From Mizuhopecten yessoensis (lineage: Eukaryota): DNA of 64,000 nt. Location of the stretch: contig NW_018480052.1 in NCBI RefSeq assembly GCF_002113885.1, forward strand, positions 163,474 through 227,473. The letters run 5' to 3'. This document shows positions 18,001 through 39,000 of the stretch, piece by piece. How positions within the stretch are numbered: position 1 is the first letter of the stretch; the number at the start of each line of letters is the position of its first letter. The position numbers were made by a program.

Positions 18001-21000
18001 GTAGTTTTAAACATATTTGACCCCTGTGAACTTGAAAATGGGTGAAGGTCTTTTGTTTGAACAAACTTTGTAGCCCTTCATCCAATCATGATACTGGCCA
18101 AATATCAACACCCTTAGCCTTTCAGTTACTGAGAATAAGTTGTTCAAAGGTATTTAACATATTTGACCCCTGTGACCTTGAAAATAGATGAAGGTCATTC
18201 ATTTGAACAAACTTGGTAGCCCTTCATCCAAGCATGTTACTGGCCAAATATCATCATCCAAGGCATTTTGATTATTGAGAATAAGTTGTTCAAAGGTTTT
18301 TAACATGTTTGAACCCTGTGACCTTGAAAATAGATGAAGGTCATTCATTTGAACAAACTTGGTAGCGCTTGATTCCAGGATGCTACTGGCCAAATATCAT
18401 CATCCTAGGCCTTTTGGTTAATGAAGAGAAGTTGTTTAAGTAAAAAGTTGATGCCGGACAGACGGATGCCGGACGACGGACGCCGCACCATGGCATAAGC
18501 TCACTTGCCCTTTGGGCAGGTGAGCTAAAAATGAATATGTTTTGCTAAACTTCATTTGTAATGGCCCAAGTCTACCTTTCTTATTTGAAGATGTTTGTTT
18601 ACACTGAAATATGCTATAGCCAGCTACTGTATGCTCTCTACCAAACTCTATAAGTCCCTAGAAAGTCATGATAAACCAGAGGTTACGTTATCTGTAAAAG
18701 GTTATGCTATCATAATCCCATCATCTGTGTGTACTGCCACAACCAGTGGTTCACACTCACATTTTGATACATCAGTTACGGCCAGGACCACTTAATACTT
18801 AAATTTCACATATTAGCATAATCTCTGAAAAACAGGCAACCAATACAACTTTTCCCTTCATTACATATTAAACTTTTCAGTTGCCTTTGCCCAAGGATGC
18901 TCCAGGTCAAACCTAAATGGTACATGTAAGAAGAAGGATTTTAAAGATTTAAACCTCAAATTCCTCTTTTGAGCCCTGCCCCTCTGCACCCAAAGAGGCC
19001 ACACCCACAGTTTATACAAAATTGAGTCATCTTGGCCAAAGGATGCTCAAGGCCAAATTAGGATAAAACCCATTTATCCCTATGGTAGGAGAAGAATATG
19101 AAAGATTTTACCCCATTTTCCCCCATTGGACCTGCCCCTCTGCCCCCAAGGGGTCCGAAATCACTGTTTATACAAAATTAAGTCCCCTTGGCCTTAAGAT
19201 GCTCCAGACCAAATTGGGATGAAATCCATTAATCCCTAAGGTAGGTGAAGGATTTTAAAGGTTTTACCTCTATTTCCCCTATTTGGACCCACCCCTCTGC
19301 CCCCAGGGGGTCCACACCCACAATTTGTACAAAATTTAGTCGCCTTGGGCCAAGGATGCTCCAGACTAAATAAGGATAAAATCCCTTCATTCCTATGGTA
19401 GAAGAAGGCATTTCAAGATTTTACCTCTATTTCCCCTATTGGGCCCGCCCCTCTGCCCCCAGGAAGGCCACATACACCATTTCTACAAAAGTAACTGCCC
19501 TTGACCTAAGGGTGCTTCAGACCAAATAAAGTCAAAATCTATTGGCCTGTTTGGGACTAGTAGTGTTTTAAAGGAAAAGTTGACGGACGGACGACGGACG
19601 CCGTGCCTTGGCATAAGCTCACCAGTCCTTCGGAATAGGTGAGCCAAAAAGCTGTGGAGTTAAGACAGAATGGTGAATCACACTAGAATATTCTAAAATA
19701 AATCTGCAGATCTCTACAGAGTTATCAATACTTACTGTATACAGAACTCACAGGCCTCTACAGAGTTATCAATACTTACTGTCTACAGAAATCACAGGCC
19801 TCTACAGAGTTATCAATACTTATTGTCTACAGAAACCACAGACCTCTACAGATGTATCAATACTTACTGTCTACAAAAACCACATGCCTCTACAGAGTTT
19901 TCAAAACTTACTGTCTACAGAAACCACAGGCCTCTCAGAGTTATCAATACTTACTGTCTAGAGAAACCACAGGCCTCTACAGAGGTATCAATACTTACTG
20001 TCTACAGAAACAACAGGTCTGTTGAGTTATCAATACTTACTGTCTACAGAAACTGCAGGCCTCTACAGAGTTATCAATACTTACTGTGTACAGAAACCAC
20101 ATGCCTCTACAGAGTTATAAATACTTACTGTCTAAAGAAACCACAGACCTCAATTTATGTTTCAATTCCTACTGTCTACAGAATCCACAGACTTCTACAG
20201 AGTTCTCAATACTTACTGTCTAGAGAAACCACAGGCCTCTCAGAGTTATCAATACATACTGTCTACCCCCCCCACAGGCCTCTACAGATTTATCAATACT
20301 TACTTTCTACAGAAGCCACAGGCCTCTACAGAGATATCAATACTTACTGGCTACAGAAACCACAGTCCTCTACAGAGGTATCGATACATACTGTCTACCG
20401 AAACCACAGGCCTCTACAGAGGGATCAATACTTACTGTTTACAGAAACCACAGACGTCTACAGAGTTATCAACACCTACTGTCTACAGAAAGAACAGGGC
20501 TGTTGAGTTATCAATAGTTACTGTCTACAGAACCCACAGGCCTCTACAGAGCTATCAATACTTACTGTTTACAGAAACCACAGACCTTTACAGAGGTATC
20601 AATTCTTACTGTATACAGAACTCACAGGCCTCTACAGATTTATCAATACTTACTGTATACAGAACTCACAGGCCTCTACAGAGATATCAATACTTACTGG
20701 CTACAGAAACCACAGTCCTCTACAGAGGTATCGATACATACTGTCTACAGAAACCACAGACCTCTACAGAGGTATCGATACATACTGTCTACAGAAACCA
20801 CAGGCCTCTACAGAGTTATCAATACTTATTCTATACAGAAACCACAGACCTCTCCAGAGTTATCAATACCTACTGTTTACAGAAACCACAGGCCTCTACA
20901 GAGTTATCAATACCTACTGTCTACAGAAACCACAGACCTCTACAGAGGTATCAATACTTACTGTTTACAGAAACCACAGGCCTCTACAGAGTTTTCTCCT

Positions 21001-36000: not shown

Positions 36001-39000
36001 CTCAATTTATCTTTCCTTTTTTGTCTCGCCGCAACGAAGTGGAAGCAAGAATTTGGTGTTGCTTTTCAGGCAGCCGCGTCAACATTCAGTTTTTGTGTTT
36101 AAGTTAGTTTCTCTGAAAGTATAAGTGCTACACCAACCAAACTTAGACCATAGATGCATCTTAGGTAGTACATCTCAACCCATGCATCAAATGCTGGATG
36201 CGGCATACCTTTCATGGTCCATTGACTTTGTCAGCATTGCAATGAGCATGAACTTATTAAGTTTTTGTAAGCATTTCAATGAACATTAACTTATTAAGTT
36301 TTTGCGTTTAACTTAGTTTCTCTGATATGTGCATTGATGGTCAAAGGGGGGCATAGGTGAGACACATCAATCCGAATGGCTTGTTATGTATCAAAATAAC
36401 TCCAAAAAGCATTCATTTAGACACACCTGTTGTGACAATTAAATACATCCTGCAGTAACTAGGAGATCATTTGACAACAGCATGTAGTTTTTGAGTTTGT
36501 GTGAGTTTGGACTTGAATGAGGGAGTTTTGAGGGAGATAGTTAAATTTTAGTCAGAATGAGGGAGGTTTGAGGGAGATAGTTAAATTTTAGTCAAAATGA
36601 GGGAGGTTTGAGGGAGATAGTTAAATTTCAGTCAAAATGAGGGAGGTTTGAGGGAGATAGTTAAATTTTAGTCAAAATGAGGGAGGTTTGACAGCTATGT
36701 AGAGGAGGATTGTTAAAAGTATTGTCAATGAATGCAAAACCTTACACTGTCAGATATTTTGATAATTATGTGGAAGGTTCTTGTCAGCAGTATAGATTGT
36801 ATTTTTCGATTGAAGCCAGTAAACATATGTTGTAGCTGTTAAATTTCTTCCTTTACAGATCAACTGTGAAACCGATTTTGTCTCCAAAAATGAGAAGTTT
36901 CAAGATCTTGTATCCAAAGTAGCTTCAGGCTGTCACAGATACTTCATGGCTGCACCGACTAGTACTCAGGTAGGCTATTTCACTGATTAGTACTCAGGTA
37001 GGCTATTTCACTGACTAGTACTCAGGTAGGCTATTTCACTGACTGGTACTCAGGTAGACTATTTCACTGACTAGTACTCAAGTAGGCTATTTCTGACACC
37101 GACTAGTACTCAGGTAGGCTAAGTTCACTGACTAGTACTCGTGCAGGTAGGCTATTTCACTGACTAGTACTCAAGTAGGCTATTTCACTGACTAGTACTC
37201 AGGTAGGCTATTTCTGACACTGACTAGTACTCATGCAGGTAGGCTTTTTCACTGACTAATACTCATGCAGGTAGGCTATTTCACTGACTAGTACTCAGGG
37301 AGGCTATTTCTGACACTGACTAGTACTCAGGTAGGCTATTTCACTGACTAGTACTCAGGTAGGCTATTTCTGACACTGACTAGTACTCATGTAGGTAGGC
37401 TATTTCACTGACTAGTACTGAGGTAGGCCATTTCACTGACTAGTACTCAGGTAGGCTATTTTACTGACTAGTACTGAGGTAGACTATTTCTGTGACTAGT
37501 ACATACTCGGGTCGGCTATTTCACTGACTAGTACTCAGGTAGACTATTTCACCATCTAGTACAAGTTATTTCACATTAAGATAAAGGTTTAAGTTTAAAA
37601 TATTATATGAAGTGCCAGTTGAGCTTATGGTATGATGTGTTGTTTGAAGGACATCTTCTTAAGAACTGGAAGACCTAGGGCCATCATATTTGGCAAGTAC
37701 AATGTAGGTACAAAGGTCGGGTCAAACATGTTAAAAACATTTAAACAACTTCTTCTCTCAAATAAATGACCTTGACTTATGTTCAAGGTCACAGGAGTCA
37801 AATATTTAGAAAATTTAAAAAATATCATCTTCTGAATAACCAGGAGGCCCAGGGTGATGATATTTGATCATGACCAGTAGCATGCTGGGATAGAGTAGTA
37901 TACAGTTTTGTTTAGTTTGGAACATTCTTAACTTAAGGAGACTCAACATATGGAAATATTTGCAAAAAATATTTTTATGGAGAACATTTTCCTATGATTG
38001 CTCAAATATCCAGGCGAGCGATACAGACCCTTTGGGCCTCTTGTTAAATTTTACTAACATAAACAATTCAGAACTTTTAGAGCATGTAAAAAAAATCAAA
38101 AAATTTTCACTGGAGTTTTGATGTGAAAACATGCTGATTGTTAAATCAAGAAAATATATCATCAAATTGAATAACTGCTGTTTTGCTTTAGAAGTTGTGA
38201 GAAAGCATTGGTAAAGGTGTTCACTTTTCATTCTTTTTTATTGTACAAAATTGCTACCAAACTTCAGCTTTGACGAGACAACCTTTCGGCGGTTTTCACC
38301 AACACACTTCCTTGATGCTAAAGTTTAACAAACGGCCATCTGATTAAATTTACATATGATTATGAATGTGAATCATCCAATGAAATCATGCGGTTGAGGT
38401 CACATGTTCGATGCTTTATAGGTTACTGAGTATATATGGTGTAGGATTTGTTTAACTTTCAAAGCTCAGTTAATGTTTTTAAACGATAAACAATTTTGAC
38501 AGGAGTGGTTATACATTGATGTATTAAGATGAGTCAAGTTACGTACCTAATCACCATGAAGGAAATAATTTAGTACTATTTCAAGTACTGATCTTTTACA
38601 ATTGTAGGCCCTTGTAATTTCAGTACGATTAGTTTTCAGTCTGAAAATCCATTATCGTTGTTAACCTGTGTTTAAAACAAATTTGCCAAAAATATATAAA
38701 CCTTTAGATTTCTGGCAAATTTGTTTAAACACAAAAATAAAAGTAATTGCCCTTCTGATAGAAAATTAGATAGACTTACTGATTATTTACTAATGATATA
38801 AATCTAGTCAGGACTATTGACAATAACTTCTGATGAGTAAGTGGGGACTATTTGATATCAATGGTGTCCTGTAAAAAAATAAATCCTGCAAATATCTTCT
38901 AGCAGTCTTAGAATTTAGGATTTACACATCATAGACCATATTTCTATGAGATACGTATTTCTATGAGATACATATTTCTATGAGATTTCTATGAGATTCA

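What the first reader, a model, noticed from the sequence alone, without database searches (positions are those of the whole stretch)
19711..37563. Recurrent pattern: minisatellites born from a gene's own splice junctions
Seen: three unrelated tandem arrays (44-bp at AAMP exon 8, 81-bp at AAMP exon 6, 28-bp at TSFM exon 4) each consist of the last bases of a coding exon plus the first bases of its intron, and extend only into the intron. A fourth array abuts an acceptor, and a GUK1 acceptor is also duplicated. Inference: either exon-intron boundaries are hotspots for tandem amplification in this genome, or this is simply the orientation in which exon-overlapping duplications survive selection. 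Either way the spliceosome must pick the first of many near-identical donors. I do not know of this being described as a general feature.
Basis: partly seen in the sequence, partly recalled or inferred. Interest (0 to 1): 0.72.

Follow-up and report, generated by a model that had tools for sequence, protein, structure and literature searches.

The report
Splice-donor minisatellites ("mirages") in scallop genes
Three tandem-repeat arrays in two neighbouring scallop genes really are built from an exon's tail plus its splice donor, but this kind of array is already known from lancelets (called "mirages") and from several human genes, so these are new examples rather than a new phenomenon.

Summary
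The window is scallop DNA, not human. Annotated Mizuhopecten yessoensis proteins for AAMP-like, mitochondrial EF-Ts and guanylate kinase map to it exon by exon at 100%.

Three arrays start inside a coding exon and contain the annotated donor:
- 44 bp x 29 at AAMP exon 8
- 81 bp x 3 at AAMP exon 6
- 28-36 bp x 20 at TSFM exon 4

GT is kept in 27/29, 3/3 and 19/20 units. A 29-bp x ~180 array ends 10 nt before the AAMP exon 4 acceptor. A GUK1 acceptor has one upstream copy, but it lies outside the stated coordinates.

The pattern is in print. Lancelet "mirages" are described in PMC3087553 and PMC3902484. Human F7, 6-16, CBS, LAMIN B2 and PDGF have minisatellites whose first unit spans the boundary, and in F7 only the most upstream donor is used (PMC1557585).

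Tandem arrays cover 24% of the window. A seed-placement null expects 0.5-0.8 junction-spanning arrays against 3 seen (P 0.01-0.035; donors only 0.002-0.005). That test was chosen after the pattern was seen and covers one window.

Verdict: new members of a known kind. Whether donors are enriched genome-wide could not be tested here.

The parts
20962..21035 (-). AAMP-like coding exon 8 (74 nt); authentic donor GT at 20961-20960
   Evidence: P0096 maps at 100%; the junction was read; the exon-end peptide is conserved in orthologues
19712..20993 (-). Array A: 44-bp minisatellite, 29 units. Each unit is about 30 nt of exon 8 tail plus 14 nt of intron including the donor.
   Evidence: TRF. Unit table: 27/29 units keep GT, spacing 42-44. 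Alignment shows multi-unit blocks repeated 7-11 units apart.
22597..22680 (-). AAMP-like coding exon 6 (84 nt); donor GT at 22596-22595
22377..22639 (-). Array B: 81-bp repeat, 3 units plus a partial one. Each unit is about 42 nt of exon 6 tail plus 39 nt of intron.
   Evidence: TRF; three donors exactly 81 nt apart with identical 28-mers or one mismatch
36859..36969 (+). TSFM (mitochondrial EF-Ts) coding exon 4 (111 nt); donor GT at 36970-36971
   Evidence: P0027 and the read-through isoform P0028 both leave the exon at this donor; junction
36953..37552 (+). Array C: 28-bp minisatellite (units 28-36 bp), 20 units. Each unit is 17 nt of exon 4 tail plus 11 nt of intron.
   Evidence: TRF; unit table: 19/20 units keep GT; 9-mer counts
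24102..29323 (-). Array D: 29-bp x about 180 in AAMP intron 3, ending 10 nt before the exon 4 acceptor. No exon sequence can be shown in the unit.
   Evidence: TRF; 144 of 178 units are identical, 174 begin with ATCAG and 169 contain CTGAT. The junction-versus-intron alignment score is only 20.
23952..24091 (-). AAMP-like coding exon 4, whose polypyrimidine tract and likely branch point lie in the last unit of array D
56109..56134 (-). Upstream copy of the GUK1 acceptor plus the first 16 nt of the exon (authentic copy at 56065-56089). It lies in the intron, 45 nt upstream.
   Evidence: Local alignment: 24/26 with one gap, score 35 against a median of 16; 0 of 2000 shuffles reach 35. The annotated proteins use the downstream acceptor.
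55996..56080 (-). GUK1 exon whose acceptor is duplicated (coding exon 5 of P0065; sixth exon of the P0066 model)

Best explanation
These are boundary-spanning minisatellites of the type called 'mirages' in lancelets and known from human F7 intron 7.

Origin (inferred): a short segment straddling a 5' splice site, made of exon tail plus intron head, was duplicated in tandem by the ordinary minisatellite-forming processes of a genome in which about a quarter of the DNA is tandem arrays. These processes are slippage or unequal exchange between short direct repeats. The array then grew and was reshuffled by unequal exchange of multi-unit blocks.

Why it is tolerated: the first unit stays joined to the exon. 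The splicing machinery uses the most upstream donor, the one that completes a normal-sized exon. All later units are therefore removed as intron, and the protein is unchanged.

Mis-splicing: use of any downstream copy would bring a stop codon into frame within 1-7 codons, so such transcripts would give truncated products and are likely decay targets.

Shown here: the anatomy, the exon-first direction of derivation, the annotated use of the first donor, the in-frame stops, and the high local array density.

Inferred: the birth mechanism, exclusive first-donor use in the living animal, and that three such arrays in two adjacent genes owe more to the sheer number of arrays than to a special property of donors.
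For: Anatomy and junctions.

Only these 3 of 44 junctions are reiterated.

Annotated M. yessoensis proteins contain each exon tail once and continue into the next exon. The same junction peptides occur in Ylistrum, Pecten and Argopecten proteins, and in unnamed transcript-length contigs encoding full proteins.

Reading through the donors gives stops after 1, 5 and 7 codons.

Donor strength is ordinary: 7 of 9 consensus matches, against a range of 6-8 among 22 donors. Position, not strength, therefore marks the authentic site.

Blocks of 2 units recur 7-11 units apart in array A, as expected from unequal exchange.

Array B ends in a 19-nt partial unit head. Read by eye from the sequences printed, the head of unit 2 combines the intron-type and exon-type versions, which fits exchange between two short direct repeats.

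Array density: 27 arrays cover 24.4% of the window and 32% of the three gene spans. Tandem repeats make up 21.7% of another scallop genome (PMC10225492, passages).

Precedent: mirages do not disturb splicing in lancelet Adh3, globin and TnC genes (PMC3087553 section 16; PMC3902484 passage). In F7 only the most upstream of 5-9 identical donors is used, and the pseudo-sites are functional when it is destroyed (PMC1557585 abstract, introduction, discussion).
Against: The local count exceeds a uniform seed-placement null. Expected 0.52-0.76 against 3 seen, P(>=3) 0.011-0.035. For donors alone, expected 0.27-0.38, P 0.0016-0.0046. Five of 19 arrays span or lie within 30 nt of a junction against 1.67 expected, P 0.020. 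A real bias toward junctions is therefore not excluded.

No RNA data from this species were available. First-donor use rests on gene models and on conservation.

Only one haplotype of one assembly was seen. Copy numbers are unverified, above all for the near-identical 29-bp array.
Confidence: 0.8

Rival explanations
1. Donor junctions are true hotspots for minisatellite birth in scallops, or donor-containing arrays are preferentially kept. Retention could arise because tandem U1-binding sites help long introns, or because the constrained first unit keeps re-seeding the array.
For: Nominal excess in this window: 3 seen against 0.27-0.38 expected at donors, P 0.0016-0.0046. All three arrays are at donors and none of the 22 acceptors carries a multi-copy array. 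Five of 19 arrays lie at or within 30 nt of a junction, P 0.020. Lancelet authors also suspected a general phenomenon (PMC3087553 section 16).
Against: The test was chosen after the pattern was seen, in one 64-kb window picked from a scan, so windows with P of 0.01-0.03 are expected by chance. By coverage, junctions are depleted in arrays (3/44 against 32%). The three donors are unremarkable in sequence and strength. No mechanism is supported by anything in the window.
Confidence: 0.3
2. The arrays are assembly artefacts: collapsed or looped repeats wrongly placed at exon ends.
For: The window contains a scaffold gap of N. The 29-bp array is 98% uniform, with 144 of 178 units identical, so its length is hard to verify.
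Against: Arrays A and C have 15-18% unit divergence with ordered variants and repeated multi-unit blocks, which an assembler loop would not produce. Each array is continuous with a correctly translated exon.
Confidence: 0.05
3. The reverse direction: a pre-existing intronic minisatellite supplied the exon tail and donor, meaning the exon end was recruited from a repeat unit.
For: For TSFM exon 4 the tail is conserved only within scallops and lies in a variable linker.
Against: The AAMP exon 8 tail is conserved from scallops to fish, and the exon 6 tail likewise. The TSFM tail is shared by 4 scallop sequences. The exon-derived part is 53-73% of each unit and is ordinary coding sequence.
Confidence: 0.03
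4. The arrays act in splicing: as decoy U1 sites that tune expression through unproductive splicing, or, for array C, as tandem recursive splice sites. Each unit of array C carries a branch-point-like motif, then ...CAG directly followed by GT.
For: Decoy donors are not preferentially degraded: GT is kept in 27/29 and 19/20 units, similar to the other unit positions. In array C, AG|GT is present in 16 of 20 units (9-mer table).
Against: Retention of GT at the general unit identity is what neutrality plus homogenisation predicts. There are no expression data. In F7 the pseudo-sites are silent (PMC1557585).
Confidence: 0.08

Closest known systems
Lancelet (amphioxus) 'mirage' minisatellites: Adh3, globin genes BflGb6 and BflGb9, troponin C, PGBD5
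   Same: Tandem repeats whose unit spans an exon-intron boundary. The splice signals are reiterated in most copies, normal mRNA is still made, units are tens to about 160 bp with 81-100% identity, and they occur at both donors and acceptors (PMC3087553 section 16; PMC3902484 passage).
   Different: A different phylum (mollusc). Here there are three arrays in two adjacent genes, with up to 29 units. Length polymorphism and somatic instability, shown for Adh3, could not be examined. The original Adh3 paper (PMC117041) is not held, so it is cited only through PMC3087553.
Human F7 intron 7 37-bp VNTR, and the like in the interferon-inducible 6-16 gene, CBS, LAMIN B2 and PDGF
   Same: The first monomer spans the exon-intron boundary, so the authentic donor is followed by identical pseudo-donors. 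Depending on the gene, only the most upstream one, or the first two or three, are used. One of them (PDGF) even has an 81-bp monomer (PMC1557585 introduction).
   Different: F7 carries only 4 exonic nt in its unit, whereas here 17-43 nt do. Donor choice has been tested by 50 constructs in F7 and by nothing here. Whether 5'-to-3' scanning applies in molluscs is unknown.
Intron gain by tandem duplication of a segment containing splice signals (Rogers model; internal gene duplication)
   Same: Duplication of a piece carrying AG/GT signals inside a gene. The GUK1 acceptor copy forms an AG...GT-flanked, in-frame 15-nt pseudo-exon of the kind that model needs.
   Different: No new intron or exon is shown here, and the annotated proteins lack the insertion. 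The model is known to me only from the PMC3087553 section 16 text and the search listing.
Recursive (zero-length-exon) splice sites
   Same: Units of array C juxtapose ...CAG with GT, and splicing to them would regenerate the same donor.
   Different: This is a resemblance only. The definition of the family is recalled rather than taken from any call, the pyrimidine tract is weak, and there are no RNA data.

Membership tests
Mirage / boundary-spanning minisatellite | Head-to-tail tandem array with a unit of about 10-160 bp | tested here: met
   TRF periods 44, 81 and 28, with 29.3, 3.2 and 20.1 copies
Mirage / boundary-spanning minisatellite | One terminal unit contains the authentic exon-intron boundary, with real coding sequence on the exon side | tested here: met
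   Annotated proteins map at 100% to the exons that the arrays enter; junctions; exon tails are conserved
Mirage / boundary-spanning minisatellite | The splice-site sequence is reiterated in the intronic copies | tested here: met
   GT kept in 27/29, 3/3 and 19/20 units; identical 9-mers in 13/28, 2/2 and 10/19 downstream units
Mirage / boundary-spanning minisatellite | Regular splicing is preserved, with the authentic site used | tested here: inconclusive
   Gene models and orthologue proteins use the first donor, and read-through gives early stops. No transcript data from this species were available.
Mirage / boundary-spanning minisatellite | Length instability or polymorphism between alleles | not testable with these tools
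   Only one haplotype is in hand. Repeated multi-unit blocks in array A only hint at unequal exchange.
Intron gain by tandem duplication | A new intron or exon, absent from relatives, bounded by duplicated splice signals | not tested
   No eukaryotic genome collection was open for comparing gene structures. The annotated GUK proteins lack the 15-nt pseudo-exon.
Recursive splice site | A functional 3' splice site immediately followed by a regenerated 5' splice site, used stepwise | not testable with these tools
   Only the AG|GT juxtaposition in array C units is seen

The most novel reading that the evidence does not exclude
In scallops, whose genomes are exceptionally rich in minisatellites, 5' splice sites may be genuine preferred sites for the birth or retention of arrays. 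Mirages would then be a genome-wide, donor-biased feature found well outside chordates. That would leave hundreds of genes each carrying tens of perfect decoy donors, a natural large-scale test of how first-donor choice is enforced.
Probability: 0.3. Interest if true: 0.55.

Novelty: new member of a known kind. Interest (0 to 1): 0.3.

Why it matters
These arrays place up to 28 near-perfect copies of a working splice donor just downstream of the real one, in housekeeping genes that still make normal protein. They therefore bear on how the spliceosome commits to one donor among identical ones.

That question has already been posed and partly answered with the human F7 array, and the structure has been named in lancelets. 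What this locus adds is modest. It is a first look at the same structure in a mollusc, at high density (three arrays in two adjacent genes), in a genome class where tandem arrays are the main repeat type.

If a genome-wide count confirmed a donor bias, scallops would be a good system for studying both minisatellite birth and donor choice.

Tried and rejected
Array D as an acceptor mirage: its last unit supplies the pyrimidine tract of exon 4. The junction segment, however, aligns to the adjacent intron with a score of only 20 against a median of 16, so no exon-derived part can be claimed.

A possible old copy of the TSFM exon 6 acceptor at 46894-46927 scored 33, reached by 1 of 500 shuffles. 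With 44 junctions tested this is weak, and it was not counted.

Donor strength as an explanation: the three donors match 7 of 9 consensus positions, mid-range among the 22 donors.

Transposon origin: unit copies occur nowhere in the window outside their own arrays among the hits listed.

Preferential decay or preservation of decoy GT: neither is seen.

A fuzzy whole-unit regex segmentation timed out and gave nothing. It was replaced by short anchors.

tRNA scan: ARAGORN found none.

Literature: no paper on such arrays in bivalves was found with the terms (0 papers). Neither 'spanning exon-intron' with tandem repeats and splice (1 irrelevant paper) nor papers citing the F7 or Adh3 studies showed a genome-wide enrichment test.

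Full report
**Source of the window**

Single exons were searched one at a time. The top hits were scallop proteins. The annotated Mizuhopecten yessoensis proteins map back to the window exon by exon at 100%:
- AAMP-like, P0096, found through its cluster
- mitochondrial EF-Ts isoform X3, P0027
- guanylate kinase, P0065 and P0066

The window is therefore Yesso scallop DNA, not human. 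It holds a run of N at 1573-2370 and three single N, which were left untouched. Exons were searched and mapped singly, and split codons were read by eye.

**Gene layout**

AAMP-like lies on the minus strand in 11 coding exons (32779 down to 15707). TSFM lies on the plus strand in 6 coding exons (32964-47585). Its start codon is about 190 bp from that of AAMP, in the opposite direction. GUK1 lies on the minus strand (60529-54348). All 44 internal junctions have AG and GT.

**The observation**

TRF reports the four arrays at the stated places.

| Array | Unit | Units | Exon part + intron part | Position |
|---|---|---|---|---|
| A | 44 bp | 29 | about 30 + 14 nt | AAMP exon 8 donor |
| B | 81 bp | 3 + a partial one | about 42 + 39 nt | AAMP exon 6 donor |
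| C | 28-36 bp | 20 | 17 + 11 nt | TSFM exon 4 donor |

- GT at the donor position is kept in 27/29, 3/3 and 19/20 units.
- The authentic 9-mer recurs exactly in 13 of 28, 2 of 2 and 10 of 19 downstream units.
- Of all 44 junctions, only these three have copies elsewhere.
- Array D (29 bp x about 180; 144 of 178 units identical) ends 10 nt before the AAMP exon 4 acceptor, and its last unit supplies that acceptor's pyrimidine tract. No exon-derived part can be shown in it.
- The GUK1 acceptor, with the first 16 nt of its exon, has one copy 45 nt upstream: 24/26 positions with one gap, and 0 of 2000 shuffles reach its score. It lies at 56109-56134, outside the finding's range.

**Direction of derivation**

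The exon tails are conserved coding sequence. The AAMP exon 8 tail is conserved from scallops to fish, the exon 6 tail likewise, and the TSFM exon 4 tail in four scallop sequences. The arrays were therefore copied from the exon ends, not the reverse.

**Which donor is used**

The M. yessoensis gene models, including a read-through isoform from TSFM exon 4 into a nested exonuclease gene, all leave at the first donor. Orthologous proteins of Ylistrum, Pecten and Argopecten, and unnamed transcript-length contigs, carry the same junction peptides once.

Reading past the authentic donors meets a stop after 1, 5 and 7 codons, so any use of a later unit gives a truncated reading frame. The 81-bp unit is a multiple of three but carries an in-frame stop. 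The three donors are of average strength: 7 of 9 consensus matches, against a range of 6-8. No RNA data from this species could be consulted, so exclusive first-donor use is inferred.

**How the arrays evolve**

Arrays A and C are 82-85% uniform. Array A contains pairs of variant units that recur 7-11 units apart, which is the signature of unequal exchange of multi-unit blocks.

Array B ends in a 19-nt partial unit head. Read by eye, the head of its second unit is a hybrid of the intron-type and exon-type versions. This fits birth by exchange or slippage between two short similar stretches 81 nt apart, but it remains an inference. Decoy GTs are neither eroded nor specially preserved relative to other unit positions.

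**Is it more than chance?**

Tandem arrays cover 24.4% of the window (27 arrays) and 32% of the three gene spans. Tandem repeats are also the largest repeat class (21.7%) in another scallop genome (PMC10225492, passages).

By coverage, junctions are under-represented in arrays (3 of 44). The fairer null places one founding unit per array at random in the gene spans: 19 arrays, 37,877 nt, 44 junctions, 20,000 trials.

| Test | Expected | Seen | P |
|---|---|---|---|
| Arrays spanning any junction | 0.52-0.76 | 3 | 0.011-0.035 |
| Arrays spanning a donor | 0.27-0.38 | 3 | 0.0016-0.0046 |
| Arrays spanning or within 30 nt of a junction | 1.67 | 5 of 19 | 0.020 |

These values are nominal. The test was framed after the pattern was seen, in one window chosen from a scan of a genome that holds thousands of such windows. 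No other part of this genome or of another scallop genome could be searched here.

**What is known**

The structure is in print.
[quoted passage not shown] They cite earlier cases in Adh3 and other loci, say this is possibly a general phenomenon in cephalochordates, and note that splicing is not disturbed (PMC3087553, abstract and section 16 read).
- Lancelet PGBD5 and troponin C are further cases (PMC3902484, one passage read).
- Borensztajn et al. state that several genes hold minisatellites whose first monomer spans an exon-intron boundary. They name human 6-16, CBS, LAMIN B2, PDGF and F7.
- They also show with 50 constructs that the F7 pseudo-donors are functional but that the most upstream site is chosen by a 5'-to-3' oriented process (PMC1557585; abstract, introduction and discussion read).
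- The original Adh3 paper is not held.
- No report in bivalves and no genome-wide enrichment test turned up.

**Verdict**

These are new members, in a mollusc, of a known kind of minisatellite. The one open and mildly interesting point is the nominal excess at donors, which needs a genome-wide count.

Noticed in passing
window 24102-29323 (-): The 29-bp array fills 5.2 kb of the 5.8-kb AAMP intron 3. 174 of 178 units begin with ATCAG and 169 contain CTGAT. Each unit therefore looks like a small branch-point, pyrimidine and CAG pseudo-acceptor, yet the gene model uses the unique acceptor just after the array. With 144 identical units, the assembled copy number is unverified.
   Followed up: partly
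window 56109-56134 (-): The upstream GUK1 acceptor copy is followed 15 nt later by GT. By eye, this makes an in-frame 15-nt pseudo-microexon that would repeat the first five residues of the real exon with one change. It is absent from the annotated proteins.
   Followed up: partly
window 46894-46927 (+): A possible old, AG-less copy of the TSFM exon 6 acceptor and exon start lies about 150 nt upstream of the real one. Its score of 33 was reached by 1 of 500 shuffles. This is weak evidence.
   Followed up: partly
window 40006-41683 (+): An exonuclease gene (Pfam RNase_T plus PML_C) is nested in TSFM intron 4 on the same strand. An annotated read-through isoform (P0028) splices from the TSFM exon 4 donor into it.
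   Followed up: partly
window 47282-47353 (+): A 24-bp x 3 in-frame coding repeat lies in the last TSFM exon, within an acidic insertion. The Pecten orthologue lacks about 25 residues there.
   Followed up: no
window 32770-32964: The AAMP and TSFM start codons face away from each other about 190 bp apart, which looks like a shared bidirectional promoter.
   Followed up: no
window 56308-56381 (-); also about 31200-31330 and 31470-31590: A tRNA-like element in a GUK1 intron matches Rfam tRNA at 31.5 bits, while ARAGORN finds no tRNA. By eye, similar stretches occur twice in AAMP intron 2. These are probably tRNA-derived SINE copies.
   Followed up: no
window 658-1200 (+) and 2610-3257 (+): A reverse-transcriptase fragment (RVT_1) and a further open frame flank the N gap. 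Together they look like a retrotransposon interrupted by the gap.
   Followed up: no
window 8410-9975 (+): A long single-exon open frame carries a B-box zinc finger and a weak SGL/beta-propeller match, making it TRIM-like.
   Followed up: no
window 62341-64000 (+): A C/T-rich 35-bp array of at least 47 units runs off the end of the window, with a strong negative GC skew.
   Followed up: no
window 17500-19543 (-): Two arrays with long units (146 bp x 6.5 and 156 bp x 3.8) lie in AAMP intron 8 just downstream of array A. Most of that 3.7-kb intron is therefore tandem repeat.
   Followed up: no
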